From positions 4,526,001 through 4,590,000 of the forward strand of contig CM120641.1 in assembly GCA_051362555.1 (NCBI GenBank): DNA of 64,000 nt, given 5' to 3'. The notes under the pieces were generated by a model that saw nothing but the letters and a program-made list of their open reading frames with translations, did no database searches and was not told the DNA's origin. This DNA comes from Lingula anatina. Taxonomy: Eukaryota > Animalia > Brachiopoda. This document shows, one piece after another, positions 11,050 to 62,790 of the stretch (its first letter is position 1; every line of letters begins with the position of its first letter). Position numbers and translations under genes: made by a program.

Positions 11050-21667
<10,618 letters not shown>

Positions 21668-31780: not shown

Positions 31781-32013
31781 ATGCCCAGGTTTTTTCAACG
31801 GCAACAGTCGCGGACACAACAACGAGTCAGGGAGCGCGAAACTGGCTGCCGTAGCATCCGTCGTCAGGCACGAATCTTGCACCGTCTACCGTCCAAAGTA
31901 GCCGGAGAACCCAGAGTTCAACAACTCCGAGAACAGCACGGCCAAGGCACAGGGTCCCATATAAGATACGTCCACTCCTCTTCCAGCCTGGGGTTCTTTA
32001 CGGGAATAGGAGG
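31781..32013 (+). CDS. Candidate distal alternative first coding exon of the innexin (77 codons + phase-2 donor)
   Basis: ATG-initiated ORF MPRFFQRQ...VAGEPRVQQLREQH...VHSSSSLGFFTGIG ending GG|GTGAGT (consensus donor). In frame with the acceptor at 51582; weak similarity to the 50995 peptide. Confidence 0.6.
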
Positions 32014-34100: not shown

Positions 34101-37100
34101 TTATTCGGAAAACAATGTTAATATTCTTTGGGAAAAAGTACAGTACAATGTTTTTTTAACAACTGTGATACTTGGTCACAGAACTGAGGCAGTTACAGAT
34201 GTCTACGGTTAGAAGATAGAAAATGATATGAGATGCAACTGATAAAAGAAGATTTTGATATCAAGCTTAAGTCAGTTAGTTAATGAACGTGTATGGTCAA
34301 CATTTTAAGACTTCACGCGTGTAATTGGTGTTATAATGGTACGTCTACTTATTTTTCCTGCCGTCCAACATTTCATTTTTGAACCACTGTTGACCTATGG
34401 TAGTAATTTATATCAGTAATGCATACAGACTTTTTTATATTCTCATGGCGCGGTTACTATATTGAGAAATCGGTAGGTATAAAACATCTTTGGAACGCAT
34501 ATTACTCTGGCAAATAAAGTATATACATGTATTACAAACTAAATCATTTAAATAGAAATAACTGTAAAAACTCACTCTCTGAATGCTTCATCTATTGTCA
34601 CGCCTGGATACAACAGGAATGGCACCGTTACTATATCTCAAAATGTATTGCTGTTAATTTACTACAAAATAACAACAACAGAGTTATAGTTACAATTTCC
34701 AAGATTAGGAAACCCATCTCATGTCAAGAATAGCAACATCTAATGGCCGCTAGATGGCAGCACGAGAACGTTAGAACAATTATAATTCTGCCTCTTTTCG
34801 GAGCTTGACTTTTGTTCAGTAGCGAATCGGGGGTAATATAAAGGACATTCATCAAACACACTTGTATCCTTTTATTTGCTATGAAACCATTGGTCCACCT
34901 GTAATGCTTGAAAATTGATTAAAATTTCTAAAGCATTTAATTTTAAAAATATTATGGGTATAACAATCATAAGAAGCTCATGTCACGGTGGCCTTGGTAA
35001 TTTTAGTGGTGAAAGGCTGATGTCCTTGTTGACAAGTCGGATTGTTGACTGGGATTTCTTTTGAGTATTTCATTCGGCATGTTATCGACCAGTAAATTCT
35101 ACAAAGTTGTCGTTTATACATGTAATGATGTTGAATAATTATGTCAAAGATAAATATTGTACGCATGTTTATCAATTTTTTATTAAGAATTGCTGTCTTC
35201 CTTAGTGCACCTTTTTACACGTAAAGTACATGCAACATTTTCACCAAATACTTATTCTTGTTTGCATTCCTGATACAACTCCAGTGTTATGCTGATTATA
35301 ATTTTGCAGTATTGTAGTTATTAGTTCTTATTATAATCAACTAGATTTTTTTTGTAAATTATTTTTATCTAATAGAAAACAGTTTCTTTCTTTTAAAAGA
35401 TTGCACCTGTTCTATCACACAGTAGTACGTAAAACAAGTTTGCACTTGTCATTTATTATAGCGACCTTTGGGCGAAATATGAATGGTCGGATGATATTTC
35501 GGCAATTGTGAAAACATGTATCACGGGATCGTAATCCCGCTGAGTTGGTAATTAATGGCATGGCATATACTTCAGGTACAGCACAAATGCATGTGCACCG
35601 TAAATGTATAAACAGCAAAATAGGCTCACACTGACTGCTGCCAGACAGCCGACTGCAGACGGAGCTCGGATATCCTACCAGTGTTAAAAGTAAGTTGGAA
35701 CTCTCTCACCTGGTTCTGGCTGCCCTGATAGCACTTACCTATGCTATGTAAGCGTATGGTCTGCGTTGCTTGCAGATGGTCAACCTACATGTGTATTGCG
35801 GAACGCTTAGCTTATACATAAACCCCTCTGCATTGCCCCTGTGTTGTTCGCTTAACACGAATCAGACAAGAACACTTGAGCTAAAAGCTACTGAAGATAC
35901 CGCCTCATCTGCTGCAGTGTGTTGCACCACTCGTGTTTGGATTGAATGTGTTTTTTAGCTTAAGGTGAACAAATGGCTCTACTTTACCACTTTCTTTAAC
36001 CACCTGGTTAAAGCTTGCCAACTTTCATAAACTTACCATGAAATGAAAAAGCGAAAAAAATAAAGAATCAACCCTATCTTGCCGAGTGTTTTCGCTCCAG
36101 GTAATCAAGTGACCTGCACTAGACCCCTGCCCAACTAGATTTCTTTGATGCGCGGTGTAAATCTCCACTCGACAGGCTACCTGAAGGCCGTGCGTATTAA
36201 CAACACATCATTTTCCAGGGAATGTTTTTTACTTGGACGGTTAAGTGGCTTCCTGCTAGGCGAGGTTTACTCGGAATGGTGAACTTAGTGTTTCGTTTTT
36301 CATTTAAATGCTCAAAAAAGGCTTGGGAATGGGTTCTTCTTGTAGAATTGTATTACACTTTGGAAAGGCACACATACATATTTCGCCTGAGAAAGAATTG
36401 AGTTAAGGTGAGCAGTATGTGAACAACTGAAAAGATAACAAATATTAGGTCTAAATGTCAGTGTTTCACCGTCTGTTTCCAATTTTCGATAGCTAGTTTC
36501 TGCCAATACGCTTTCTAGGACAGTCAAGGCCATCTCCACCCTCTCTAACCCCTATCCTGATTTGCTTTTTCTTTCTTTCTTTCTTTTTTTCTTTTCTTTT
36601 TTTCCATATGATTTCGTTGCGTCAAAATTATATATTGGTGTTTTATTTCTTAACACCACGTCACGAGAAGATAACCCTTCACCCGTGCACATTAAGAAAA
36701 TCATATTGTTTGGTTTTTTTATAAATCACCATCTTCTTTTGCCTACGTGACAGAGTGTGCAGCATTCCAAGTTTATCCTCAGCTTAACGAGTTAATTTTG
36801 ACAGAAAAACGTTTTTTTTTGTCCCGATTATTATTATGACTGAAGACGTGTATAAGAAAATTAAACACCGTAATGTGAAGCACGTGCTTGTGTAACCTTT
36901 TAATACCTGGCGATATGTTTACGAGTACTTAATAAACAAATGAGGGATTATTTAGATTTCCGATGAGACAGGTACACAGCCAAAACGGGCAGAATTGATC
37001 AATTATCTGAAATATGATACCGGTCAATCCTTAGGAGAATCAATAAACAAGCGGAAAGAAATAGATCTTGTTTAAAGAGTGAAGCCTCACTCTTGTAAAA

Positions 37101-40100
37101 CACGACCCTCTAGGAACCCTTGGCTATCATACAAAGATATATATTGACTTAGAATCTCGTTTCCTAGCTCCAAGTAATCATATAAATCAAAGAAAGTAGT
37201 AAAAAGAACTTGAGTACATAAACCTGCTTCTCAGCTGTATCGAGTTAGAGGGTTTCCTTGAAAATCGCTGGGAAATAGTTCACGGGTCAACGCAAGAAGG
37301 CAGGTAGAATTGTCAATTAAAACTGTGATGTGGCATGCTTAGAATTCACTTCTCTCATCTGCCTTTTTAAATTGCACTTTGAGTGTTTCTGAATGGTTAT
37401 TTGGTTGTTTTTGTATTGAATCCCTCTCCCTTTATTGGACCTGGACTGGCTAACCCTTGTGTACATACGCACGTCATTTGTACCCCCTTAACACTAACGT
37501 TAACCTCCACGCGTTCATACGTAGACATTGCATAAACATTAAATCACTCTCAGGGTCACTTCAACGCCATCTGTGGCATTGATGGATACGAACCATCTTT
37601 TCTGAGAGACGTGTTGTTATCTCTTTATCATTGATTGTTCAGTTAAAGTAAAGTTAAAGCTATGAATTACGTGCCTAAAGGTACCCTGGCATTTGTAGGG
37701 CTCACCTTTAATAGTGAGTTAAATGGTAAAATGTTTGGACCTTTGCACTCATTAGCCGTTCAAAGGCTGTGCACTGAAAGCTATCGTGTCTAAACATATA
37801 TTAGGCGCTCACTATTTTTTTCTCTTTAGTGTCATCATTCAACTTCTTTTTGCACAGTTGATGTGTTTTTCCTCTGCCGTGAACATTTCTGTTTTTAAAC
37901 AGCAGTGAATCTTGGGGATTTTGCATGTTTTCGCGTGATGCTAATTCGTTACATTTGAAAACACTAATTTAAACCAACTGCATTTTGAATCTTAATGCGA
38001 AAAAAATAACATGGTGGTTTTGAGTAAATATTCAGACTTTAAGTTTGTTACGTCAAAGGGCAGAACCAATGCTAGGGAGTGCCAGTTTCGGAAAGAGATG
38101 AATCACAACAGTCGACAGATATGACCATATAGGTGGAAGATATCTCATTTAAACGGTTTCTTTGGTAAACCTATTTCCAAATGTTACGTTTTTTCTGATG
38201 TACCGACAAAAATGGACCAATCGACGACTGATTTGATCGGACCAGCAGCCGATAACTTCATTAGCAAGAGATAGAAGTAGTGGAGAATAAATCAGGAAAA
38301 CGCGTCTGGAAAAGTGCTTTTGCTGATAACGCTCCTTCACCCACGTAGCCAAACGTACTCCAACCGCCAAGACTATCACTCGGCTTTCTCGTACGCCGGA
38401 AGAGGTTATGTTTTCACCTTTGCCTCTGGACGGAGATGGCACTGATCAGTGTGCCACGATCGATGTTGATAAACCACCGGTGGTTCCTCTTAACTTCACG
38501 GTTTACCTGTAGTGATTAAGCACATGATAAGAGTCAGAGTCGCACGCTGATGTATTACCTTCGTGAGACTGCCACCAACTACGGTAATACATGACAGCCA
38601 CTTGGGCTTCTCCAAACTACTGACACACAGAGCGGAAATTAGTGGTGGCTCAGTGGTGGCTACTTCCATGGAATTTTTTTTCTTTAATCATTGGGGGATT
38701 TAGGTAAGGCATTGCGATCCTGTCTATTTGCCGAAAGCGTTTTCGTTCACCTGCGGAGCTGGGCACCCCTGTAGTTGTTCTGGCTCCTGGACCGCGGAAT
38801 TTTGACCGGTCGCCCTGATACGTGCACCAACAAAGGAGAGGTATATAAGGAAAATTAGTTATCAATATAAACAAACAGCGTGGCCAGGAACTGTGAACCG
38901 AATCTATGATGTACCAAAAGGGAACCCACCCAGAGGGACACACTAGGTATAAAAGATAAAGGAGACAGCTTTATGCCGAAGTTTCATGCCAGAGGAAAGA
39001 CGAAGTGGTCCGTGCTCCGGATGGTGACATGGCCTTTCTGAAGTTTATTTTTCACGGGTGTGTACAAGGTTAAAACAGTTTCCACGGTAAAGGTATGCGT
39101 GTGTGTCAATGTAGGACTCTTGTTCATAATTTCTAGAGCGTCTTAATGTTTTTTTTTGTTTTTTTTTTTGTTTTGTTTTGTTTTGTTTATCTAATATTAC
39201 CAATGGCATGCGAATACAATTTAACCATCTGCTTGTAGCGACTTCGTTTTCTAGGAAAAGTAGTGTAGCCGGTAAAATATAAATTTTTTGCATCAAGATT
39301 AAAATTTCAGCCAGGAAAATTCTAATACGTTATTTCCTACCAGTGGTTTGATTAGATAAGTGCACTCAAGAAGTAATTACGAAAAAAAAACATTTATTCT
39401 AAAGATGTGACATATTCGCCCTTTTTCCTTTTCCTTATGTTTTCCTGCGAAATTAAGTGCCAGAGGAATTTCTAAGAAGCTTAACGTGAACGTTACGTAA
39501 GCCATGATTACCAGGGGTGAAAATCTAAAACGAAAAAAGTTCATTTATAACAAGATTCGACTTTTTCTCATCGTTGAGATTCGTAATTTTTCAAAACTTG
39601 AATACTTGAAGGGTTTACGTCTTTACAGATATGAAATAAATTACCCCGCCCAGGCAATTAATAAACTAACGAGTTCATTTTGAGTTGTTTCAAAATAAAG
39701 CCTGTTAATCATCAATTGAGTTTGGAGCAAAGACAGAGCAGGGTCTAGCCGAAGCTTACATAACTTCCCATAAAAGTAGTTTTTCCGCCAAGTTACAGAT
39801 TTCAGGATGCGTTCACCCTCTAGACAGTGGAGCAGGTTAATTGATGGTTTGGCAACCATTAAGTTAGGAAAAGAAGCATTGACATTTAGCATGGGATCAG
39901 TCGTAGTTCTCCCCAGTATGATTATATCTATCATACGTTTAAGGTTTGACAACTCGGTTCATTTAAAAGACTGAAACCTACCTGGAGATATAATCATCTC
40001 CAGATCCCGTCTGTTCCTCAGGCGGATACCTGCAGTACCTTGTGGTAAAGTGCTGAGCATTGACGTTAAAAGTGTGAACAATCTGAGCGTTTGCTTAGTG

Positions 40101-43100
40101 AATGACTTGTAAAGTCTTTTGGATATAGGCACAACCGCCAAGCAACTACAGAGGTAAGAATTAAGTGGGTTCATGTTATCCGCGTTCAAAAAATCAATGG
40201 AAGCTGTAATAAGATAACAATAACAGTGCGTTTTATACACGTATGTCTTTTTTGCGAATATTTTCACTTGTCGGTGGCATTAAAGTTCGGCATAGATAAA
40301 TTTACAGAGCTTATATTTACTTCTTTAAATGTGATGTTTGATTTTTACGCTTATAATAGAACATGATAGAACTTATAATGTAATATAATAGAAATTTTGT
40401 TAGTTTTTACAAAACAAAACAAAACTTCCAGTTCTGCGAATTTTTTAAAGAACTAACGTCAGCACCTTTTTTTTGTCAGTTTCTTCCATGCCACGGCATA
40501 CTGCTGTTTGACATTGGAGATGTTGACGTTCGGTTAGCAATGCATGTGCACCGTCATGACTCTTTTTTTTTGACATTTTCCCAGATATGTTACGTATAAT
40601 TCGATAAGGTTTTCACCTGGATTCGCTGTAGGTCGCTGTAGGTCATACTGAGAAAATTATGCATTTATTTTAAAGAGATTAAGAAGAAAATGGCCAGAAA
40701 GGAGCTGTTGTCTTGGGTGTAAATGTAGCATTTTAATATACACACTTAGTTTTCCCCTGTGGAGCGCGAGCCCAACAGGTGCGCCGGTCATCACTAATGA
40801 GGAGGTTAATTAAGGAGCTCCACGCCTTTCGCACCGTATCTTGCCTAGCAGTGTCATAAATGTATACCTTCACTGCCCAGGTGCTAACTAAAGAAGCAAA
40901 TCTATAAATATTAGTTTCATCTAACACACACATTCGTCATCACGCGTCTCTTTTTCTTTCAACAATCTCTCTTGAAATAAAACCGATGCCAATCTGTTTG
41001 GAAATTTTACAAGTTTTTCCAATTATGAATAGGTGAGTAAGATTGGCACACCTTATGAAGTTCGAGTCCGCTTCTTTGAAGAACAGAAAATGACTGTGCA
41101 AGTAAAATTATTAGATAAGCAGTAACAGTGAACTGTTCAGTTATGGTTAAGCCTCAAGGCAATAGATACTTCTTCTAAAAACAAAGTACCTTGACCTTTG
41201 ACAAATTTGCAAGAAAAAAATCTGAACAAACGGACATGCTCTGATATTTTCCGTTTACAATAATTTTATTACCTTTCTCGTTAAATTTGGCATTGTTTTC
41301 ACCTCTTGGAAAAGAGTATAGCTATGTGGCAGAAGGTGTTAATTCTGTTCAAAGTAATTGAGAGAGATTTTTAAAACAGAATATAAAACCAAAAGTTATT
41401 CCACATTCAGGTACATATTTGCCACGCCCTCAAATATGTTATGTATCCCAGATATCCCAGGATGTGCGCGCCTTGTTTTTCTTCCTGTGGTTTAAGAGGA
41501 ACATAGATCATACCTGCCGCTGTTTAGAGCACCCTCTTTTTACTTAGTTCTGAACAGAGTGCTAGGTCACCTATTGTTACTGTATAAGGCCGTGGCCTTG
41601 AAAGGACCGCCCAGGAATACAATAGCATTTCATGGGGATGTAAAAATTCCCGACGAACGCCAAGCATAACACGAAAGGCTGTTGTTCGTTTAAATTTGGA
41701 GTTTTTTACGTAACCTTTTTCTTGCCGTTTTCTAAGTGTTTGGGAAGAGCGATGGTCAACTGCCTGTGAAGCGATCAATTGTGGTCTGGTTCCATTAACC
41801 TCTTGTTGTTTTTCCGTTAGGTCTTGTTTCCGGGCACTTTATTGTTAATAGGGGGTGGGGCGAAAATATGCGTTTACCTTTGAGCTATAACATTATTAGA
41901 AGTCTGGTTTTCTTATAGGCAGTACACCCCGTGAATTAATCAAACGCTAGAACAACAGTTCCAAATATAATTTTCTCTAATTGCCGTTTGAGCTGCTTAT
42001 CTCATAAGAGCTTTCATCTATCCGTCACTTTGTGAAAGTGCGGAAAGTGAATTACGAAGGTTGTGCTGTCTTACATTATTGAGGCAATGAATTTTGTTGT
42101 TGTTGTGAGTTTTGATTTTATAATGATCAAACTACGACTTTGGGCAATAAAATGTGTATTCTTAATTCTGATTAAAATCGGTGATGATCGATAGTTAAGA
42201 GTTTTATGAATGCTGGCGCGATGGAAGTCTTGAAACATGCTTTAGCGTTATACAAATAGTGCAAGCAAGATTGGAAATTACAGAGCAAGACATAGAGAAT
42301 ATGACACCTGCACTGTGCAAGATGTACAGCGTACCAATGCTTGATATTTGCAATGGAATCCCCCTTCCACTTAAACCTTTACATGTAAACCCATGCGTCA
42401 TCTCGTTTGAAGTAATTTTGGAAGCGGTACAAATGAAGGAATAGAAGGAAATTGGGGAAAATAAGACACGTGACGCAGAGATTGAAACTTATTTTATAAA
42501 TCAAGGCGCAGGACTATTTTATTTTAAAATGGAAGAAAATGCAGGTCCACAAAGTAATATATTTTGAATACAGCAAAACATGATATATTTGATAAGAAAA
42601 CGTTTACTATGTAAAGTATCGCCTTCATATTACGAATTGTAACGAGTTTTCCGTTCATTTCCAAATCATTGACTTCTAATTTTCTTTAACATGCATCAAT
42701 TGATGAGTAAGATAACTTAAGAAGACATTGAGAATAGTTTGAGTTTTTCCTGTTTGGATTCAATTTATTTAACACCGTGAGAAAAAATCTTCAATTACAC
42801 CATGTCAACAGTCGGCCCTTTTCAGTGATTTTAATGTCACCTCAGGGCGTTTCATCCATCAGTTACAATGAACGTTTTTTCATTCCTTTTTTTACTATAC
42901 ACTGTTGACTATTGAAACTTTTTCAACTTGCGGCCCTAGGACCAAAAACTGTATGAGAAATATACTTTCGAATTCCATCCAGTATTTTTTTTGCACAAGC
43001 TTTCTTGTAATGTAACAAAAGATTGGCGGTGACTCGAAGTTAATAGCAATACGTGGTTTCTACAACATCAACATTCCTTCTTTTAATTTCAAACATTGTG

Positions 43101-46100
43101 CATAGTAAATATTGAACACAATTTAAATTGTGAAAAGACGCATGGCATATCAATTGCTTACTAAAACACACTGCTTTCACTGATTGTTTATAGGTGCAAA
43201 CTTCCCAATGAGCTAATTCCCCAAAGCGGAGATGTGATTAATCTTTTCTTTTGTTGAAAAGAAACGTTGAGGCAGTCGTATGTATAACTGTTAGTTTTCC
43301 GGCGATTTTCCGCATGATTACGTGCATTCGAACAGAATAACATTGGACGCCATTATGTTATTTCTGTAGGTTTTGGATAGTAATCTCGTAACTGGCTGAG
43401 ATTTCGCCATGTTGATGAATCATGTCTTCTGTCGGGTTTAAGAACAGTCATCTCAACGTTTGCTTCACTTAAGGTGTTTGGATGATGATCTCAATGAAAA
43501 TTTGCTCAGGTCAGTATTGAGTCTCTTTGCTCCAGAAAGCATTTGTAAAGACTAAAACAGGTGAGTTCGGCTCCTTACCTGAGAAACAGAATGGAAAACG
43601 TAAACAGTATATAGTACTAAAAGATTCCTTGTAGGTCGACGGCGTTGTGGAAGCAATAGCTTTCCTGATGCGATAGATGCGAATGGCAGAATACTGTACT
43701 CTATCGATCTTGCTGAGAACCGAGCTGGTAGTGCTGCTATATAATTGTGCTGTGTCTTGATCAATGACTGGATGGCGGGGGTTTTAAACTACTGTATGTC
43801 ATGTTATTAATTAGCTTAAGCCAGTTGTTGGGTTACATTTGGACGCTTTCCCCATCTTTTATGTTGCTATGGTCTGGCGATAAACCAGTTTATATAGTAA
43901 TAAATCCGTATGTTATTGAAGGAGATGTCGTCGGTTTGTGTAGAACGTGCCAGAGGGGCATTGTAGGCTGGGGGTATGGGGCATCTGCAACACACCCTCC
44001 TCTGGTAGCAGAAGAAAGCCTGTGGGTTGGCTGTAAAATAATGATACTAATAGTCAACACTGTTCTTAGGATAAAAAACCAACTGAAGAGCAACACCGTG
44101 CCTGTTGTCTTGAAACGATAGACGGATTCACAGCAGCAACAGCATTATTATGTGTCTGTTATCATGTTATATTTGATATTCACGTAATCATAATTTATCA
44201 TAACCAAGGTTATGATAACAAGTACACGTGTTAGTGTGAGTTGGGAGGGGGGGAGGGGTCAGAGCTTAAAGTGCGTTGACTAACGCCAATTGAGAGCATG
44301 ACTAAAAAGTCTATCTTGTCTTTTCTCCTCATTTGGCCTGCTTGCTCATCTCCATTACACGGGTAGTTAGCTCTCTAATATCATGTACGAACACATAACC
44401 TGGGAGACATTCATCAAATATTGGCGGAAGTTAGACTCATTAGAGGTAAGACAATGTAATATTATAAGCCCTCAAGCTGCTGACAGACTCTAGAAGATTT
44501 GTAAAAGTGATCGATTTTTAATCACAGCCACAGGTTGTAACCAAATTGACGAGTGAGAAATGACCTTACGCTGCGTTCTGTTTTTTTATTTTTTTCGCCA
44601 CGCGATACTTGTTTTAGAAGCAGTATTTGCTGTCGGGATGTCGCCGCGCATCGTAACGGATTAGTCCTAAGAGACGTATAGGGTTTTCGATATCGAAGCA
44701 ATGATCATCCATGACTCCTGATCACGACATTTTATCCTCATTCATAATTCAAGGATATCATATCTACCCTCACAAAACAGAACAGTCAAACACGGAGCGC
44801 TTTGTTTGCTACACTTTCAGACAGCACCCCGGTTTTCGATTCATTTTAAGCCCCTAATCAATAATAAACAAAACAACGCATTTCAATAGCATCACTTATA
44901 ACTCATCCCGTTTGAAATGTCTCCATTTAAATGTTTAGATGGTGCATTTCTGATGGCGAGGATCGATAGCTCGGCAGCTGTGCATATTACAGCTATTGGC
45001 CAGCTTAGGCTCAGATAAAGTACACAACATATTTATCGATATACTTTTCAATGGGCATGTGGACATTTCTCTCAAGCAAGATGGAGGTTATAGACTTCTC
45101 AATACGATGTCTTCTACCCTCCGTTATTACGATACCTCCTATCGCCTGCTGCCACAGATAATTCTTGAAGAGATTTTGTTAATCTTATTTAAAGTTGCCT
45201 GTTTATGTTACAATGCCTCATCGCCTTAAAGAAACTCGTCGAAGCAATCCGCCTCACGCCAAGTCGGGGGAAAGGTAGAGTATCGCCTTTATTTTAACAA
45301 GTCATAACAAACAATTGTGCAAATAGTCGTCTTTGTTGGTGTATTTTACAAAAGCCATATGCCATTCGTTGCCATAGGGATTACGGAGAACCTCAAGTAT
45401 CCCATGGGTTTCATTAAAACTTTCAAATGTGGGGGTTAATCAGCCAATTCTTATGATTACTTGCCAAAAGCCACAGTGTTATGAATCAACGGTAGATTAC
45501 AGCAGCCTGCATTTGGCAATGAGATGGGCCTTGGCGTAAATTATATTCAAACTTTGAGTCGATATAGACAATTTGATGCTTTAGTTATAAAGATATGTTA
45601 TAAAATTAATAAAGAATATTTTATCAACACGTGCATCTATTACATTGTTGTGATTTTTCTCCAATCCATCATGGCGGCCCTGTCTTAATGGATCCCCATG
45701 GCTGGACACCATCAGGGGTCTCCTCTGCTCCCACACTCTTTTTATAACAATAGGAAGCAGTGAGATAATCCAGTTTGTATCGAAATTAACACACCCCGTT
45801 TCGCACCATTCTCTGTGCCGGTCGAAGGTTTAAAAAGTGAAGCACAGTGGGTTTCTTAGCGGTACTCTAAGCAGAAACACACCAGTGGACACATGGGCTC
45901 AGGATGAAAATGCCTTGATCCTCGAAACTAAGAATGTTTAAAACAACAACACCTAATAAAACCCAAGCAGAGACATGTTTTTCTTTTAAGCTGCCTTTCG
46001 AAATGTATTATTTTCTCATTTAAACTGATTTAAACTGGACTGCCGTTGCTGTACCCATGCGTCTGGTACGTGTCGCGGTCTCGTAAGTATTGGTCAGGTA

Positions 46101-46365
46101 TTGTGGAGACAAAATGTTTTTGGGATTTCCGACCGGTGCTGCTCTTGCGACACAAGCTCACAAAACTGTCAATGGGAAGCATTCCTCCAGGTAAAACTGA
46201 TAGATAGCTACGACTGCCAAGACTGGTCATAGTATGAAACAAGTAGTATTTTTCTCTTTAACATAAGGCTTGGTGTTCGTGGTGTTTCTTGGTCAGATTG
46301 GATGGGCGTAAGGTCCGAAAAACGGACTTTGGGTGCGTTTTTGATGTGACACAATAGCATGCTGA

Positions 46366-46531
46366 CAGAGGCGGATTTAGACCGTCTTCTGGGTCTTTCA
46401 AAAGACGGTCGGGTTTTAAGTTACATTGACGGGTATCTAATTTTATCTGTCGGAGGACGGTCAAAAATGTAGGATATATCAACAAAGATAATTTGGAAGA
46501 CTGTCAGAATATATATCTGGATCCGCCCATG
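46366..46531. mobile_element. MITE, copy 2 of the 12744-12911 family
   Basis: CAGAGGCGGAT...ATCCGCCCATG ends; shared internal blocks gtcttctgggtctt, ttacattga, tctgtcgga, tcaacaaagataat and ggaagactgtcagaa. Confidence 0.8.
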
Positions 46532-47329
46532 CTTGAAGTGATTTTTAAGAGGAGGCTTACATGTTTGTTTTATGAAATTAACACTATTAATAGCCAGAAT
46601 AACAGAATACAGCCTGTGTATAATGCTGGTATTTGTTTTTCATTTATACTTCGCAGCTAAAGATTGTATCCCAAAATATGATTTATCGTTGCTAATGCTA
46701 TCAGGATTAAACTTTTATATATCGTTTATTCAGGTAAAACTCGGGTATGAATTGTTCGTCGCATCTTCGCTGTGTTTGACTGGCCGTTTGCAGCATTTTA
46801 ATTTTTAGGGAGCGAATAATGACGACAAATACTGTTTTGTGAGAAATTGATAGCATGTTGATATAACCTTGACGGAATTTTAAAAAGAGGACCGCGGAAG
46901 AATCATTGCGCTTGTACGCGTATTTTTCTTTCACTTGTTTTTTTATTGTTGTGCATTCCTCCTAACAGCTTACATAATTTTCCAGTATTTGCTTTTCTGT
47001 TACTTTATTGGCATTTTCTCTGCTACGAAACGAACTATTAAGTCGTTCAACATCAAATGCTTCGGAAAAAAAGAGTTTAATTTCCGTTTCGAAAGTGACT
47101 GCCACGTTTGTTGTCTACGTTCGAAGGCCCACTTCCGCGTCTGTGAGAAATTAATGAAGCGGGTTTTGTAACTTTATGTATCATAACATCACTGACATCT
47201 TGATGTCAATAAATCCTGGGCATTTTTGGGTGAAGGACTATTGACCTCTTCCTATAATCTATGTTTTGAAAGAACCATATCAACATTACAAGTAGCAGGT
47301 ATTTTGGGAAAGTATTGTAAACCGCCATC

Positions 47330-47343
47330 ATTATTTATTTATT

Positions 47344-47397
<54 letters not shown>
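47330..47397. repeat. (TTTA)n/(TAT)n microsatellite
   Basis: Read directly. Confidence 0.9.
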
Positions 47398-50300
47398 TTT
47401 TAATGTAAATGTGTACTCTTTATGATAATGTTCCATATATTGAATGAAAAAAACCTGCCCTTGCTATTTTAATTTTCCATGTATTTAATGAAAACTTTCA
47501 TCTTATAATGACCATTTTTATGTATTGAAAAAAATTAATCCTTTTTATCTAGGACCATTTTTCATGAAAAATTTTGCTCTTACTTAATAATTTTTAAAAA
47601 TGTATTTAAATAAAATCCCATGTATGCCTGTTGGTTTAGACTCATGTAGTACCAAGCAAAGGGTAATTTTTGCAGCTGTGGGATAAAAACTATCATTTGT
47701 TCATGAGGTGCATTCGGTATACAATTGATTCGCGTCACCCGTTGTTGTTTCAATTTTACGACTGTCTTACCCCTTTGTTAGTCAACCAGAAACATTCGAC
47801 AAAGATCGCCCAACAATCGTAGGCTAAACGATCTTATAAAAATTGAGAAAATCGATGAAAAACAAGTCTCCGAATGAATGTTTTCTGACTTTTGCCCGCG
47901 CACCTGCGTCTTGTATCCCGTTTCAGTTACCTCTAGGGTCAGTAACAAAAGAACCACTCAGCGCACAACTCACCGAATGGAGCTGGTTTATTTGACGTTG
48001 TTTAACACTGATGCAATTTTACGTGGGCTTCGTACATGTGAACGCGGTAATCGGGAATAAAATCAGGCTAATAAGTTTCAGATACATGCTTAAATAAACT
48101 TGCTTGAAATTCAGAAACAAACAACAACTCCTCTGATAATCTGGGAATTATCGATGAAGTGCGGGCCTCTGCTTTGCCTAAGAACATTATTTGCATGATT
48201 TCATAACGTTTTAAACGTGAGAGTTTGTCCGAAGTGTATTGAATAAATCATTATAGGTGTGTATATACTTGGAAATTTAACACAAAAGACATCAAATGTG
48301 GTATCTGTGTAGGCATGTATGATTAAAATTATCACTCATTCCATGAAATTACTTGTTTCTTTTCCAAAAGAATACGCATCAATTGAAAAAGTTTGGGATC
48401 AATTGTTTTTTTTCTGTTGCCCACGCGGTTGACATGTTTATTATAGAGTAGTACTTGGAATTCCTCTCATAGAAAATCGAACAACAATCGTTTTAACCAA
48501 ACATTCACATTTGCATACCAATTAATCGTGGGTGGTTTTGAAACTGAATTGTTTATAGGTTGATTCATTGAGTATATAAGCCAGCTTGCAACTTTAAAAA
48601 CTTTGCAGATAGTACGTTCCCCAGCCACCCGCAAATAATTATTGATAAAACTTTGAAAGTGTCAGCTACTCAAGGTTAACTGATATAAATGAGCACTAAT
48701 TTTTTTCGACAGAGGACACCGAAATTAGCTTAATCTAATCGTTAGAAGAACAGAGAAATGAGATACCTATTTTAGCAGCTGGTGCTTGAGGAGCGCGTCT
48801 CCCCACGGCATCATTTATTCAAACAAAGTTAGTATAGGTACGCAATATCAAAGAGAGCGGCATACGTTTACTTTACATATGATCGTTATCTCTGTACATC
48901 ATCCATCAAATGTGCCTCTCCCATGGGCCAGCTCTCACTAGTTGTGTACGTGTCCAAAGATATAACCATAGCACAGAGCAAGAATAACCGGAAAAATAAA
49001 ATTTGTATCAGTTTCTTTTTATGTCCTTCGTGTTCCGAAGCATGACACGAAGACATTCGGCTTTATGGATTTAGGTTTCTTCTCTCTTTCTCTCTCTGTA
49101 AGTTGTTTATTAGTTGATACGAAATGGTGAATTGTAATTATTCATATCACAACATCGTGAAAATCAATATGTGTTGGAAAATCCACCATCACGCCAGGTG
49201 ATGCTACAGATCTTCGACCGTTTTGTGCAAGAATTGCTCGCAGCGCTTCAACCAAGATTGGCACCGCGTTATCGTCTGCCTACTTCATTCTTTCCATTTG
49301 AAAAATTCTGGGATCTTACAGTCTTCTGCTATTGATTCCGCCATATATATTTCTATTAAGATGCTGTATACCTTGTTCCTTGATGAACAATTGTAGTTGC
49401 TGTCTAATCGATAGCTATTGTTTTGTATGGCACATGCCAAAAGAACACAAATATCGAAAAATTTATAATAGAAACTATCGATTCTGTCCTTCCGTATAAC
49501 AGTTATGTTTTCTGTTAAAGATTTACTGACTCATTTAATATTTTTCTTACATTTCTGTCAAATGAAATGGGTGTAAAGAATCTTGGTCTTTCATCTTTGA
49601 TTACTACGACCGCGGGTTGGAAGATGAGGGGATTATCCGGTGCACTTATAAATAGATTTTATAACTGTAAAACTTTTTCATGATTCATAAAATTGCCATG
49701 ACTAATTTTCATATAAACACATCCACGCATGACGCCTTAGTTAGACACTCCAATCGCCTACTCGCCATCGCCCGATGAATAAATGATAAACAAATATTAA
49801 TTGCTAAGGAGATTTCCAATAGAAATGGTATCTAAAATTTGTATGACAGCTCAGAATACTGGTGACAACGTAGTCGTTTAAACTCGGTCCGTGTCTTTTG
49901 TTGAAAGATTACCTATGCTCTGCCGTTATGTATATAAACCTGTTACGGTTATGCACATAACGGCACAATGCCATGGAATATGTAGAACGAAGCTGATTAA
50001 AATGCGTATTGAAATCGAAATTTCTATCCCGTTGCTCATAACGCCTGAATCAACGCTTATGTTTACATTAGTACACTTTATGCATAATGCATATTTGAAA
50101 TCGTCCCTTCAACATAAAGCGTATTGTTTGAGGAAAGGGCAGGCTGTTAAGGATCTTTAAAATTTCAGCGCTGGGAAACAGATGCTATTATATCGGTATC
50201 CTATCTGGCGCACTTGTGAGTAAATCGATGATGAGCCCCGAGTTTGATCTTGCGTAAAGAAGGGACATCGATGGTATTAGAAAAGGCCTCGCATTCTGGA

Positions 50301-50542
50301 GCTTACTCTGCTGTGTTTTAACGCTGATATCGAAGCCTTTCAGAGCGCAAACAATGCTATTGAAAATCAAACACAATAAGAGCTATTATTGGTGTTTGCC
50401 AAGCCCAAAGCTTTTCACTGGGGATCCATTGGCAGTGTGAGAACAGCAGCGAACCGACGGTCCACAACTCTTGACGCTAGGAAACTCCCTGTTCAAGAAG
50501 AAGGAAATTTAGATCTTTTCGCGTTCCTTAACAAGCAAATGG

Positions 50543-50697
50543 ATGGCTCGCAATCGCGGTCGTGCTGACGCTGCTGCTGGACATAACCGACCGAAAGTCC
50601 GGAATCTCGTTAATCTTCACAAAGAGCGACACAAACCACACGAAAATGCATCTGAGGCGCATGCTGCGGGAGTCGCTGGTCTAGCTCTCGGATTCGG
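50543..50697 (+). CDS. Candidate alternative first coding exon A of the innexin (or conserved uORF micropeptide)
   Basis: MARNRGRADAAAGHNRPKVRNLVNLHKERHKPHENASEAHAAGVAGLALGF then GG|GTAGGA (phase 2). In-frame stop upstream of the ATG; paralogous to 50995-51146. Confidence 0.68.
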
Positions 50698-50994
50698 GTA
50701 GGACACGGGTGTTAGTAGAGAGAGAAGAAATAGAAGAAAATAGTTAGTAGTTTCCCACTCGATCACTTGCTCATTAAAACACTTTGATACTAACCCAAAT
50801 GAGTGGTAGTCGCCAAACTAACCGCACCATCGTTCGTTAAACAGAACAACCGTGTGATGACAGAGCCAGTGTATTGATCGGTGAACACTTATTGGTCAAA
50901 ACAAGTGGAATTAATATTTTTACTAACACAGGCAGCCACACGTTAGGATCTCGCATGGCATTCCGGACTCATCTGCTGGCCGACGTTTAATAAC

Positions 50995-51146
50995 ATGGGT
51001 CGGAATCGCTGTCGGGCTGACGCGGTCGCCGGACATCATCGCTCTCGGATTCGCGGACAACACATGCACCCCCACAAGGAGCGTGTTAGAGAGTCGGACG
51101 AGGGCTGGGGAGTTCACGCTTTAGGTCTAGTCGCTGGCTTTGCAGG
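50995..51146 (+). CDS. Candidate alternative first coding exon B of the innexin (or conserved uORF micropeptide)
   Basis: MGRNRCRADAVAGHHRSRIRGQHMHPHKERVRESDEGWGVHALGLVAGFA then GG|GTATGA (phase 2). 13 of the first 20 residues identical to exon A, with several synonymous differences. Confidence 0.7.
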
Positions 51147-51583
51147 GTATGAGCCTTGATGGCATACGTGTTAGATAGTTTACGCTTATCTTCAGTTGTC
51201 GGTCTCTGAATCTTGTTTTTTTTTTCGCTTTTTTTTCTCCATTTTATTTTCAGCGTTTAACAAGTTTGTGTGATTATGGGCTTTTAGTTGTGTGCGTTAC
51301 CATACCCCGTAGTTCTAGGTGTTGTGGGGCATGTGTGTGAGCAGCAGGTAGATTCGATTTTCCGTTTTCATACAGCATCTATTAGTTGCCTTGGTGATTG
51401 TCTTGTTTCAGATCCCGTGACGATATTCATCCTCGGCTTCGGTTATTTTTGTGGTTTGGTCTTGTCGTAAGATGCACGCTCGATGGTTCATTAAACAATG
51501 GGTTCCGTCAGGGGACCATTACGTGAGCGGGTCATCTAATGAGTAATAATTAATAAGACCTGTACAATTTATTTCGTTTCAGA

Positions 51584-52780
51584 ATGTCTGGATTTCTGGA
51601 CGTCCTAGGCAAAGTTGGCAAGGGACTTCGAAGTGATGATGATTTCTTCGACAGACTGAGCCATCGCTACACAGCCATTATTTTCATTGTTTTTGCCCTT
51701 GTGGTCAGCACAAAACAATATGTCGGCGACCCGATTACGTGCTGGACACCAACTCACTTTACTGATGCTCATGAAGATTATACCAATAACTATTGCTGGA
51801 TAAAAAATACGTACTATACTGCATTTGATGAGCGGATCCCGGAGAAATGGGAACCGCATGAGCACATTGGGTACTACCAATGGGTGCCCATTGTGCTGAT
51901 GGTACAGGCACTCATGTTTTACATACCCTGTATAGTATGGAGACTTTTGAATGGAAGGACGGGGGTGGATATGAACACCATCGTGAAATCATTAAGTGGA
52001 AATGAAAGTTTAAACCCAGATGCGCGAGAGGGGACGATCCGGTACCTTGTGCGCCATTTAGATAGATACTTTGATCACCAGAGGGACCTAAGCAAGGGCT
52101 GCTTTGCCAACTGCAAGCAGCTAATCTCAAAACATTGTATATGTCTTTTTTGTGGAAGGCGATATGGTAACTACCTTATAGCATTATACCTTATTATCAA
52201 AGTTATCTATTTGGCCAATGTAATTGGTCAGTTGTTCCTCCTCAATGCATTCCTTGGGACCAATTACCACATCTACGGCTTCGAAGTTATAGGTGACCTG
52301 ATGAACAAAAGAAGTTGGAAAGAGTCGGGTCAGTTCCCGAGAGTTACCCTGTGTGACTTTGAAATCCGTTTCCTTGGAGGAGTCAGCAACATTCACCGCC
52401 ACACCGTCCAGTGTGTGCTCCCCATTAACCTTTTTAATGAGAAAATCTACATTTTCATCTGGTTCTGGTTGGTCTTTGTATCCGCTGCCACCGTGTTCGG
52501 GTTCCTAACCTGGCTTAGCATGCTATTCCAACGGGAGAGGAGACATTACATCCGTAAATATCTCAAACTAATGGAGCGAATCGAGTCAAACTGTGATACC
52601 AAAATGACCCACGCCTTCATTGAAAAATACCTGCGTCAAGATGGGGTGTTTATATTAAAACTTTTAGGTAGGAATACAAACGATGTTGTAGTGGCTGAAA
52701 TGATTGACGCTTTGTGGGAGTACTTTACAGAACAAAAGCGAAACATTCATCCTGGAAATGGAACAGAGATCGATGTTTGA
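51584..52780 (+). CDS. Innexin (gap-junction channel, unc-9/unc-7-like), intronless 398-aa coding exon
   Basis: Innexin motifs DDDFFDRLSHRYT, QYVGDPITCWTP, NNYCWIKNTY, YYQWVP, FPRVTLCDF, QCVLPINLFNEKIY, LRQDGVFIL; four hydrophobic segments. Acceptor TTTCGTTTCAG ends at 51582, 1 nt before the ATG. Confidence 0.97.
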   Translation: MSGFLDVLGKVGKGLRSDDDFFDRLSHRYTAIIFIVFALVVSTKQYVGDPITCWTPTHFTDAHEDYTNNYCWIKNTYYTAFDERIPEKWEPHEHIGYYQWVPIVLMVQALMFYIPCIVWRLLNGRTGVDMNTIVKSLSGNESLNPDAREGTIRYLVRHLDRYFDHQRDLSKGCFANCKQLISKHCICLFCGRRYGNYLIALYLIIKVIYLANVIGQLFLLNAFLGTNYHIYGFEVIGDLMNKRSWKESGQFPRVTLCDFEIRFLGGVSNIHRHTVQCVLPINLFNEKIYIFIWFWLVFVSAATVFGFLTWLSMLFQRERRHYIRKYLKLMERIESNCDTKMTHAFIEKYLRQDGVFILKLLGRNTNDVVVAEMIDALWEYFTEQKRNIHPGNGTEIDV

Positions 52781-55700
52781 TACACATCTAAAATGTAAAT
52801 AAGGGGCCCTGATCTTTTGACATGAAGACTTTCGCACAAGCGTATGATCTCAGCAAGAAAGCATTACCATTTTGCAAAGCCCTCGCTGCACTTGTGGAAT
52901 GGCCAAAACATCAATGCACGTTACGTCGTTTTTATTCGTCTTCCAAGGCCTCTAGCAAAGTTCACCCTCTCCATAGGAATTTCGGTACTCAGTATTGATA
53001 TGTCACATACGAAATCATGAGTGGCCAAATATTTTAATACAGCGGGCCGTTGAATGACGTTAAAATGGCGGCCATATTTAGACAAGGGTTTATTTGAGAA
53101 CCAGAGCAAACATCAGGTTATTTGTCGCCGCCAGGAAAATCAATGCTGAAGGTGTATGATCATAGTGGTGTGAACAAGAAAGGTACCTTCACTCACACAC
53201 TGGGGCTGTGGCCTAACAATAACTTGGTGCCATTGACGATCTAAAATGTCATGTTTTTGTGACATTGATGTATGAAAAATAAAGCCTATATGTAGATAGA
53301 TATATCGAATAACATTATTCACACGTAAGCGTAAGTGTTATGCAACAATTTTAAATAATTTTTAAGCAGAGTAGATGGTGCGAATCACGTACTCATGTTC
53401 TTAATGTAAATTCCTTAGGTACATTTTTTGTTTGTTTGTTGACTTTTTTCTGTGATATAAATGATGCAATTTAGACATCTATGGAAGGAATTTAGACACA
53501 GAGAATTGGAATTTTGTTTTCACCTTGTATTTTAGTATTTTGTTAACCAATTCACTTTTTTGTATTAACCCTATAAAATGTTGTTTTTGTCGTCACCTTT
53601 ATTTATACATAGAGATATTTACTTTGTTCTCCTCGTGTACAATTGAGGTACAGGTGTGTTATCTAATTTATTTATGATTTTTACTCAAGTATGCATTAGT
53701 GAATTAAATATGTATCCATTGATTATCACGGTGTACTGGTACTTTGCAAGTAAAGTTACAGGTTAACGATTTTACTTCGACTCCACAATAATTACTCTGT
53801 ATGCTGTTTCCCCTTTATCTTGAGTTTGTTTAATTACTGGCCTTTGTGTCTTAACTTCGTGTTCTTCAACCTCACAAGATTGTCCCCAGGCCAAATACAG
53901 AAATATTTACAATAAGTATAGAAACGCAAGTATGACTTTTGCCAGTTGTCTACTGATTGCATTAGTTTGTTTCGTGTTGGGAATCCCGAAGGACAGTAGG
54001 TACTGGAAGTTGAGCAAGTCAGGTGGAAAGGTGTGGGAACTAAATTAGGAATTGTTCAAATGCCCTGGCTGGCGCTATCGACAGAAGAAGAAGCAAGAAT
54101 TTGTTCAGGAGATTGGAGAAGAGAGGGGGAAACTCAATGAAAATTTACAATGATTTGAAGAAAAGTAACAAAAGAAAATAAATTACGACAAGAATAGAAT
54201 GGAAGACATTTAAACTCAGAAATATTTGAAAGAAAAGAAGAAATGTAATTAAACATACAGTGAGGCGAAGCGATAAAAGTAAAAACGAAAAGGATGAATT
54301 ATATCAGAAATGAATTTGGAATACATTTGGGGGGGGGGGGGGAATTAAAACCGTTATTATTAATTAAACCGCAAAATATCATTTCAATTTTGAGCACATT
54401 AATCTATGCCACTAGTCATCATCTGCTTGTGATCTCTGACGAGGATGGCCTGATGGGCAAATTAATGGTTTGTAAATGATCGCTCCCATCGATCAGTGAT
54501 GAGAAGAGAGTCGGGTGTGTCCCTAATTGATACTAGTACAGTTATCTCATTAAGTGACGTCAAACTTGTAGTACGGGCTCTCGACTATGCCAAATTAAAG
54601 AAAACAGTGGTATCTTGTAACAGGAACCAGTAGCAATTGCTAATCAGATAAACACTCCGAGCGTAAGTTTCTCACTTAAGCAAAATTCCCTTGAATATTG
54701 AACAAAAAATGTAAGCTACTTAGGCATGTTATTCCCTTGACTGAAATATCTATTTATGTCTGAATACATGAGGGTAATGCGAAAATTGTTTTGACTCTTC
54801 GGGGACGATTAAAACTAACATGTGCTAAGCATTGTACTTTGCGTGCAAAAAGCAACTTTCTTTACAGGTATTTTTATTAGTAGTACGTTCAGGATACAGT
54901 GTGCACGGTAGTATAGTTACTTATACACTTGATTTTTTATGAAAGAATATTATGACATTCAAGTTCATGATGTTTGCGTGTACAAGTGTGATACCTGGTT
55001 AAAGTAGGCGGTAAGATAGTGTTAAAATTATTATTTCTCTTATATTCAAAACACAAAATTCACCTACATATAATTATATATTATATACGTGTTGATAAAG
55101 TATCTAGTGTTAAGAACCTGTATTATTAATTAATTATTGTATTGTAGTTTGAATCTCATACAACAACTTTAAAAACTGTGCTATGTAAAAGTTCCAAACG
55201 CTGAGATTATATACATTATATATGTCTGGTGAAGCACAATCGTTCAGTACTGTTTGAAAACTACTGATTCACTTGAGTCATATCTGTGAATAATGTGAAG
55301 ATTGAGATTGCTCAAAGAACACAATTTGCTGAACAAGACAACCTAGGAGAATAAAAAAGTTTAAATGAGTGTTACAGAGCTCTCCCTTTGAAAACTACTT
55401 TTGTCGATATTCCAATAAGAGCGCTGGATTGAAGACTAAATATATGGCTTTTCCGTGATCGAATCCCGGGTATTGTCTTCCACCTGCGCCATTGATTGTG
55501 GACGGGCGGGAGGAGCCGGGGATCGATGGTTTCAGGCTAGTTCATCAACATCGTTGAATAGGCTTGTTTATACAGAGAGGCTTCTTTCCTTGTCTTCCAC
55601 CCTCTTTATTGATTCCCCCAGAACAGCCGGTGCGGAGCATCGATCAGCCCTTACTTTACAAGTGCTAATTAGACCTCTAAGTAGCTGGAGTGCTGAAAAA

Positions 55701-61888: not shown

Positions 61889-62790
61889 TAATAATAATAA
61901 TAATAATAATAATTTATTCGAGCATTAAATGTGGCAGTTACATTTTTTAGCCCTCTAAACTACAAATATATAAATAAATAAATAGTTATACATCACTATG
62001 GATTACTACTAATACTAATACAGTGTTTAAGATTATTAATTACAGTGTATACGTTGTTTAAAATACTTATTACAATTGTAAATAGTTCAATACACTGAGG
62101 GAACACACATTTTCTTTGATAGGCTTATAGCTATATGTATCTAATGTGCCATACTTATGGTTCATATAATATATAGCAGGATGAGGCTACTTCAGTGTGG
62201 CAGATGCTCATTTCTTTTGGAAATTGCCGTCTGAATGTATTTACCAACAGCGTACAATTATTTCTCATTTTCTGGGCTTAGTATGATTTTAACCTTCTCG
62301 TCACTGCTTGCTAGGTGATGCATGTCACATTTAGGGAATTGTTTTAACATGCCCTCCCTCTCTTTTACATGGTGTCTACATTCTAGTAGGAAGTGCACTT
62401 CGTCCTCGATTGCAGGACAGTGGGGACAGAATCGTTCCTCGCGTGGTGTTTTAGGTCTGGTGTAGCGTCCTCTTTCCATTTCCAGAATATGATCACTGAC
62501 TCTAATTTTAGCCACTTCCCTTTTTAATGACTGAGGGGCATTAGTTAGCAGGTACTTTTCAATTTTGTAGGACTTTTTTATCAGACTATAAGTTTTTAAC
62601 TTGGTGCTTTGAGGATCAGTTAACTCTTCCCAGAACATTTTTTCAATTTTAGCATTGATTTTTTCCTCAATATTGCAATGTGTTTGGATTTGCTGAACCC
62701 CTGGGACATTTTCACTGTGAAGATTCCAAGTTGTTAACATAGTATTAATCGCTCCTGGCCAATCTTTTTCCCCTATTGTACACACTTACA
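61889..62790 (-). mobile_element. 5'-truncated non-LTR retrotransposon (RTEX-like LINE) 3' end, ORF2 C-terminus with premature stop
   Basis: KLKTYSLIK...EKYL...AKIRVSDHILEMERGRY...R.CPHC..IEDEVHFLLEC is a LINE ORF2 C-terminal Cys/His motif. The frame continues past TAA (LYAVGKYIQTAISKR). Minus-strand AATAAA followed by a (TTA)n tail at 61889-61918. Confidence 0.85.

What the first reader, a model, noticed from the sequence alone, without database searches (positions are those of the whole stretch)
50543..51583. Tandem paralogous mini-exons poised to give the innexin interchangeable N-termini
Seen: two ORFs ~450 bp apart, too short for the ORF track, encode MARNRGRADAAAGHNRPKVR..HKER..HAAGVAGLALGF(G) and MGRNRCRADAVAGHHRSRIR..HKER..HALGLVAGFA(G). 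13 of the first 20 residues are identical and 6 of those codons differ synonymously (e.g. cgc/cgg, gct/gcg, cga/cgc), with two more synonymous changes in HKER. Both end at a phase-2 GG|GT, exactly the phase needed to join the acceptor at 51582 (GG+A, then ATG TCT). Established: the innexin N-terminus lines the pore and affects gating, and N-terminal isoforms are known for Drosophila ShakB and C. elegans UNC-7. Inference: duplicated variable first exons spliced to one constant innexin exon, organised like clustered protocadherin loci, could diversify electrical-synapse subunits.
Basis: partly seen in the sequence, partly recalled or inferred. Interest (0 to 1): 0.88.

Follow-up and report, generated by a model that had tools for sequence, protein, structure and literature searches.

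The report
Duplicated alternative innexin first exons
A brachiopod gap-junction gene splices either of two duplicated small exons onto its single channel-coding exon, which would add a short tail that likely tunes the channel; both forms are already in public gene annotations and the layout resembles the worm gene unc-7.

Summary
The gene is a Lingula anatina innexin, and both peptides are already RefSeq isoforms X2 and X3. RNA run X6 has 4 reads for each predicted joint, 50697>51583 and 51146>51583. The exons are paralogues that look protein-constrained: pS 0.70 against pN 0.19, with unalignable flanks. They are only two of at least seven upstream exons: three unrelated coding ones and two non-coding ones, the latter giving most junction reads. 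They do not swap the pore helix, which lies in the constant exon; they prepend a basic, predicted-disordered tail of 51-52 residues. The closest system is C. elegans UNC-7, whose N-terminal extensions set voltage gating and rectification. Protocadherin-like organisation fails the tests I could run. Mollusc innexins show the same many-starts layout, and the scan noted related layouts in Octopus and Owenia. Translation of the tails and their function are untested, and no homologue was found in another species. Verdict: real, a new member of a known kind, modest interest.

The parts
50543..50697 (+). Exon A coding part (RefSeq isoform X2): 51 codons + GG, phase-2 donor; gives a 52-residue extension
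   Evidence: 4 junction reads in run X6; depth rises from about 8 to 31 over 50413-50554 with no joint into it listed, as expected of a first exon (start not mapped)
50995..51146 (+). Exon B coding part (RefSeq isoform X3): 50 codons + GG, phase-2 donor; gives a 51-residue extension; paralogue of exon A
   Evidence: 4 junction reads in run X6; whether it is a first or an internal exon is open (candidate acceptor ending 50931)
51555..51582 (+). Common 3' splice site used by all upstream exons
51583..52780 (+). Constant exon: one base, then the complete 398-aa innexin ORF (own ATG 51584, N-terminal helix, four membrane helices)
   Evidence: PF00876 E 1.2e-106
31781..32013 (+). Upstream coding exon of RefSeq isoform X1 (78-residue extension, phase 2), unrelated to A/B
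   Evidence: RefSeq model only, outside both read lays
35660..35689 (+). 3' end of a non-coding upstream exon (no in-frame ATG); yields the 398-aa form; 5' end unknown
   Evidence: 11 loose-end reads in run X4, placed
39029..39057 (+). Upstream coding exon of RefSeq isoform X5 (10-residue extension, phase 2)
   Evidence: RefSeq model only, no joint listed
43476..43509 (+). 3' end of a non-coding upstream exon (no in-frame ATG after the last stop); yields the 398-aa form; 5' end unknown
   Evidence: 15 loose-end reads in run X6, placed
45213..45274 (+). Upstream coding exon of RefSeq isoform X4 (21-residue extension, phase 2)
   Evidence: 3 loose-end reads in run X6 match its end
50539..50568 (+). 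Out-of-frame 9-codon upstream ORF overlapping the exon A start
50955..50990 (+). Out-of-frame 11-codon upstream ORF ending 4 nt before the exon B start

Best explanation
Exons A and B are two homologous upstream exons of a Lingula innexin gene, each spliced in phase 2 onto one constant exon, and each is predicted to add a basic, histidine-rich, disordered tail of 51-52 residues in front of an unchanged channel, a tail that likely tunes voltage gating as UNC-7 extensions do. Shown: homology, splicing of both, frame, and five further upstream exons on the same acceptor. Inferred: an old tandem duplication; separate promoters used differently between samples; translation from the upstream ATGs (from the synonymous-change excess); a cytoplasmic position of the tail at the pore mouth. 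Untested: any effect on conductance, gating or rectification. About 0.85 that the tails are translated and selected; about 0.6 for the whole statement including gating.
For: Junction reads for both exons. RefSeq X2 and X3 are identical to the predicted products. Codons 2-20: pS 0.70, pN 0.19, Fisher p 5e-4; differences fall at codon positions 3/1/2 = 11/5/3; coding DNA aligns (0 of 1000 shuffles as high) while 200 nt upstream and 250 nt downstream do not (645 and 483 of 1000). 19 random substitutions keep 12 of 19 residues in only 190-287 of 20,000 trials per setting. Model: residues 1-50 mostly pLDDT under 50, helix starts at Met53. Exon use differs between runs: X4 lists 11 reads, all from 35689; X6 lists 15, 3, 4 and 4 reads from 43509, 45274, A and B. 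UNC-7 has six N-terminal groups of 24-168 aa before TM1; longer ones give stronger Vj dependence, and UNC-7b rectification needs HKK(45-47) and DDD(70-72) (PMC7455501, passages and Discussion read). Both Lingula tails keep HKER, and the core DDD is at 70-72 in isoform A; this is a lead only, as UNC-7 was not aligned.
Against: Support for the two joints comes from one of six runs laid and 4 reads each; overlapping mates could count twice. X4 had no depth on A or B, and X7 and X8 listed no joint. 15 of 26 listed junction reads in X6 and 11 of 11 in X4 come from non-coding exons that make the plain 398-aa protein. The exon A ATG has a weak context and an out-of-frame ATG 4 nt upstream; exon B has an upstream ORF; the core ATG stays in every mRNA. 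No homologue of the tails was found in another species, so selection rests on one paralogue pair. Low pLDDT partly reflects that few of the 91 rows cover the tail. The HK-to-DDD spacing is 44 here and 25 in UNC-7b. PMC7455501 itself reports an earlier study that found little effect of the UNC-7 N-terminus on gating.
Confidence: 0.6

Rival explanations
1. The tails are translated and selected, but act as trafficking, retention, lipidation or partner-binding signals and leave gating unchanged.
For: The best-conserved part is the first 20 residues, rich in Arg (R3, R5, R7, R16, R20 invariant) and far from the pore helix. Arg-based retention signals in membrane-protein tails are recalled, not tested. 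Both tails end in a Gly-rich apolar stretch that gives a 19-residue hydropathy of 1.59 with the core helix and could sit at the membrane.
Against: No motif was tested. The one functional precedent read, UNC-7, concerns gating. The two roles are not exclusive.
Confidence: 0.22
2. A and B are mainly alternative 5' untranslated exons or promoters; ribosomes mostly start at the core ATG and the extensions are incidental.
For: Two of seven upstream exons are non-coding and give most junction reads; upstream ORFs precede both ATGs; the core ATG is kept.
Against: Synonymous excess in the spliced frame, loss of similarity outside the coding part, and retention of ATG, open frame and phase-2 donor in both copies.
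Confidence: 0.12
3. A protocadherin-like variable/constant locus that gives cells a stochastic identity code for electrical coupling.
For: Several upstream exons join one constant exon, and two are tandem paralogues.
Against: Only 1 of 10 pairs of coding exons is homologous. The docking loops and all membrane helices are constant. No third paralogue among 2990 six-frame pieces of the window; no upstream similarity survives correction over 21 pairs. CTCF-like motif 19 matches against 16.9 expected.
Confidence: 0.04
4. A and B are copies of a dispersed repeat that happen to lie in the intron.
For: The genome could not be searched for further copies.
Against: No further copy in the window. Reads laid on the region are 95-100% alike with few loose ends, unlike the true repeat at 46366-46530. 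Both are spliced in frame.
Confidence: 0.02

Closest known systems
RefSeq Lingula anatina innexin unc-9 isoforms X2 (XP_013415387.1) and X3 (XP_013415389.1)
   Same: Identical to the A+core and B+core products; isoforms X1, X4, X5 of the same gene map to three more exons in this window.
   Different: They are automatic models. The paralogy, the signs of selection and the two non-coding exons placed here are not visible in the protein records.
C. elegans UNC-7 N-terminal isoforms (PMC7455501; passages and Discussion read)
   Same: One innexin gene, several N-termini of different length on a common channel, a short form without extension, charged extensions; isoform A has DDD at 70-72, the numbers given for UNC-7b.
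   Different: UNC-7 function is measured, here not. Duplicated exons are not reported in the passages read. No homology of the tails to UNC-7 was tested or found.
Drosophila ShakB(N+16) and ShakB(Lethal) (PMC7455501 and PMC5412853, passages read)
   Same: Transcript variants of one innexin that differ at the N-terminal end.
   Different: ShakB variants differ up to TM2, so they replace the pore helix, TM1 and the first loop; the Lingula exons only add residues before Met1.
Mollusc innexin isoform sets in RefSeq (cores beginning MDSIIG and LDSVLG)
   Same: Many alternative N-termini on one constant core: 10 distinct ends among 15 Haliotis records, 11 among 13 Octopus records; junction residues fit a phase-2 intron.
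   Different: The Lingula gene falls in a Lingula clade apart from both, and its tails show no significant similarity to 43 mollusc extensions.
Clustered protocadherins alpha/gamma (PMC7811963, passages read)
   Same: Variable upstream exons spliced to constant downstream sequence.
   Different: There, more than a dozen large similar exons each encode ectodomain plus membrane helix, with a conserved CTCF element and stochastic choice. Here one pair of 150-nt exons encodes a cytoplasmic tail.

Membership tests
Innexin | PF00876 domain over the protein | tested here: met
   357 bits, cut-off 25, profile 1-332 of 333; INX-6 (5h1q) E 1.2e-49
Innexin | Four membrane helices after a short N-terminal helix | tested here: met
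   four hydropathy peaks; model helices 53-65 and 73-94 onward, mean pLDDT 82.7
UNC-7-type N-terminal isoform system | Several alternative 5' exons on one constant channel | tested here: met
   seven exons; five with reads here, two as RefSeq models only
UNC-7-type N-terminal isoform system | Extensions are translated | tested here: inconclusive
   synonymous excess supports it; no peptide or ribosome data
UNC-7-type N-terminal isoform system | Extensions change Vj gating or rectification | not testable with these tools
   needs electrophysiology
ShakB-type variants | Variable part replaces N-terminal helix, TM1 and first loop | tested here: not met
   the 398-aa core is identical in all six protein records
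Tandem exon duplication-derived alternative exons | Two homologous neighbouring exons used as alternatives | tested here: met
   homology; each joined directly to 51583; A+B+core would stop after 115 or 69 codons with either candidate acceptor
Clustered protocadherin organisation | Array of more than a dozen highly similar variable exons | tested here: not met
   two paralogues only
Clustered protocadherin organisation | Variable exon encodes the recognition ectodomain and membrane helix | tested here: not met
   10-78 residue extensions only
Clustered protocadherin organisation | Conserved CTCF-binding element before each variable exon | tested here: not met
   A-B upstream 24 of 200 shuffles as high, best of 21 pairs 1 of 200; recalled CTCF motif 19 against 16.9 expected, one 2-mismatch site before B and none before A; promoters are unmapped, so the test is rough
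Clustered protocadherin organisation | Each variable exon has its own promoter | tested here: inconclusive
   no start sites listed; depth step before A; candidate acceptor before B
Clustered protocadherin organisation | Stochastic single-cell promoter choice | not testable with these tools
   needs single-cell data

The most novel reading that the evidence does not exclude
Spiralian innexins share a phase-2 intron just before the first core codon that works as a socket for plug-in gating tails. In Lingula the socket gained a duplicated, selected pair of ball-like tails whose HKER motif pairs with the core DDD as HKK does in UNC-7b, so one gene would build rectifying and non-rectifying junctions by exon choice.
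Probability: 0.2. Interest if true: 0.62.

Novelty: new member of a known kind. Interest (0 to 1): 0.32.

Why it matters
If the tails tune gating, this is a clean natural test set: one identical channel with zero, one or the other of two related tails, with which the UNC-7b ball-and-receptor model can be tried outside nematodes. It also points to a layout that is common in mollusc annotations and that searches did not find described as such (open-licence PMC and bioRxiv only). It does not establish a protocadherin-like code.

Tried and rejected
No whole genome is held, so genome-wide copy number and the region beyond the window are untested. No RNA holder was listed by index; the nine runs came by species label, and six of the nine were laid. 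The first lay (X1, X4, X7, X5 on 36000-55500) was swamped by a repeat at 46366-46530 and listed no joint into 51583; 194 loose-end rows were not shown. Homologues of the tails: region search of residues 1-60 returned only the protein itself among 306 candidates; the A/B profile against 1.84 billion proteins gave one hit, a 1614-aa Arg/Ser-rich protein that I judge compositional; ESM Atlas scores were 0.78-0.79, innexin clusters, below its lead threshold. A by-eye likeness of the X1 extension to the mollusc VRFF extension failed (144 of 500 shuffles as high), as did a His-rich mollusc profile against A and B (54 and 58 of 500). Signal-peptide-looking text in the +1 frame was rejected: 8 of 19 residues kept and the frame stops before the donor. 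An extra membrane helix from the tail end is not supported: hydropathy 1.59 against 1.68-2.27 for true helices, and the model leaves it without secondary structure. Four further ATG-to-donor phase-2 candidates (27702, 33011, 43973, 46744) match the chance level of the other phases (5 and 3) and were dropped. The careful tree did not finish; the quick tree of 51 chosen proteins was used. 20 of 251 proteins had no anchor motif and were left out. PMC8049302 (8 passages read) reports Limax splice variants but no first-exon layout in those passages. No supplementary files were read; isoform tables there could bear on novelty.

Full report
Observation. The two ORFs start at 50543 (A) and 50995 (B). 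13 of the first 20 residues are identical, 6 of these by different codons, and HKER carries two more synonymous differences. Both end GG|GT after 50697 and 51146, and the acceptor gives GG+A before ATG 51584. The peptides align with score 99 against a maximum of 45 in 5000 shuffles; 25 of 49 aligned residues are identical and 12 of those codons differ.

Identity of the gene. The ORF 51584-52780 is a complete 398-aa innexin (PF00876, 357 bits; INX-6 E 1.2e-49). The best database hit is Lingula anatina innexin unc-9 isoform X2, 100% identical. Its cluster has six members of 476, 450, 449, 419, 408 and 398 aa. All share the identical core, and the five extensions map to single exons at 31781-32013, 50543-50697, 50995-51146, 45213-45274 and 39029-39057, each with a phase-2 donor. 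A and B are therefore already annotated as X2 and X3.

Splicing. Six of nine offered RNA runs were laid. Run X6 shows 50697>51583 in 4 reads from 3 starts and 51146>51583 in 4 reads from 4 starts, both GT..AG. It also shows 15 reads entering the acceptor from an exon ending at 43509 and 3 from 45274. Run X4 shows 11 reads from an exon ending at 35689 and no depth on A or B. The exons ending at 35689 and 43509 have no in-frame ATG after their last stop, so they yield the 398-aa form. X7 and X8 have depth 1-2 on the region and list no joint; X1 and X5 list none. So A and B each make 4 of 26 listed junction reads in one run: real but minor there. X6 also covers the intervening introns at about 3-13-fold on the sense strand, so unspliced RNA is present. 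Start sites were not resolved. Depth rises from about 8 to 31 over 50413-50554 with no joint into A. B has a candidate acceptor ending at 50931; A+B+core would stop after 115 codons (69 with the next AG), so the two are alternatives at protein level.

Selection. Over ungapped codons 2-20, pS is 0.70 and pN 0.19 (Fisher p 5e-4); the 19 differences fall 11, 5 and 3 at codon positions 3, 1 and 2. A more cautious simulation, 19 random substitutions without stops, keeps 12 of 19 residues in 190-287 of 20,000 trials, p about 0.01. Coding DNA aligns (0 of 1000 shuffles as high), the flanks do not (645 and 483 of 1000). I infer an old tandem duplication with constraint on the peptide. One search lists no variant in the coding part of A (X6 depth 11-31) but three in the 55 nt before it; B is too thinly covered to tell; 12 of 14 listed core variants are synonymous. 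Against: no homologue in another species was found, and upstream ORFs and a weak ATG context for A may let ribosomes skip to the core ATG.

What the exons add. The model of isoform A (91-row alignment, mean pLDDT 82.7) leaves residues 1-50 mostly under pLDDT 50 and starts the N-terminal helix at Met53, the first core residue; few rows cover the tail, which weakens the disorder call. The tails have net charge +5 and +4 with 5-6 His, and end in a Gly-rich apolar run. The pore-facing helix, docking loops and membrane helices are the same in all isoforms. That the innexin N-terminus is needed for function and affects gating is stated in PMC5412853 (passages read).

Mechanism. Exon choice decides whether a subunit carries no tail or one of five. 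By analogy with UNC-7, where six N-terminal groups differ in Vj dependence and UNC-7b rectifies through HKK(45-47) and DDD(70-72) (PMC7455501, passages and Discussion read), the tails likely act at the cytoplasmic pore mouth. Both keep HKER, at 26 and 27, and the core DDD is at 70 and 69. The spacing differs from UNC-7b and I did not align UNC-7, so this is a lead. A trafficking role is the main rival; a purely untranslated role is less likely given the codon pattern.

Comparison. Clustered protocadherins have more than a dozen large similar exons that encode ectodomain and membrane helix, a conserved CTCF element and stochastic choice (PMC7811963, passages read). Here 1 of 10 coding-exon pairs is homologous (A-B, 0 of 2000 shuffles; others 129-1975 of 2000), no third paralogue lies among 2990 six-frame pieces, no upstream similarity survives 21 comparisons, and a recalled CTCF motif occurs at chance level. 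ShakB variants differ up to TM2, unlike here. Mollusc innexins in RefSeq show the same layout: 10 distinct ends among 15 Haliotis records and 11 among 13 Octopus records. Of 76 distinct ends before two mollusc cores, none ends in a residue lacking a G-ending codon (background 203 of 730) and 47 end in W, R or G against 6 in Q, K or E, which fits a phase-2 intron; these ends are not independent and no mollusc DNA was read. One mollusc extension is conserved across bivalve, gastropod and cephalopod records, so such tails can be old. In a quick tree of 51 chosen proteins the nine Lingula innexins and one unnamed protein form one side of a branch (SH-aLRT 100), apart from both mollusc groups. Lingula and mollusc tails show no significant similarity.

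Novelty. Searches listed no paper on these exons or on spiralian innexin first-exon sets; I saw listings and abstract starts, and passages of PMC8049302. The scan's own unchecked notes report related layouts in Octopus and Owenia, the latter with nine exons that do carry the pore helix; nothing was noted near this place. The finding is a real, annotated, modestly extended case of a known kind. Interest 0.32.

Noticed in passing
window 46366-46530: High-copy transcribed repeat, SINE-like by size: hundreds of reads per run at 88-95% likeness with unrelated loose ends on both sides.
   Followed up: no
window 42510-43811: Low-depth reads (0.5-1.6) of the strand opposite to the innexin in stranded runs X4 and X5, around the non-coding exon ending at 43509; possible antisense or divergent transcription.
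   Followed up: no
window 52781-55500: Sense-strand depth continues for at least 2.7 kb after the stop in X4 and X5: a long 3' untranslated region.
   Followed up: no
window 50912-50935: Candidate splice acceptor with a branch-site-like TACTAAC (consensus recalled) 64 nt before the exon B ATG; no joint into it was listed.
   Followed up: partly
window 5370-7274 (-): 634-aa ORF with a Mab-21 C-terminal domain match (PF20266, E 5.2e-6, above cut-off).
   Followed up: partly
window 62258-62740 (-): 160-aa ORF that by recall resembles the C-terminal end of a LINE retrotransposon protein; no Pfam match.
   Followed up: partly
window 21356-21667 (-): 103-aa ORF with tandem GNWRGG repeats.
   Followed up: no
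outside the window, proteins P0004, P0005, P0006, P0024, P0104: Five more Lingula innexins are listed on a contig of the same length (271,367) as this gene, suggesting an innexin cluster; none is listed with several full-length isoforms.
   Followed up: partly
proteins P0134, P0140, P0174, P0243, P0244, P0247: A 60-67 residue innexin N-terminal extension (VRFF ... RRGS/RRAS) conserved across oyster, abalone, Babylonia and Octopus records, a stronger case of a conserved tail than the Lingula pair.
   Followed up: partly
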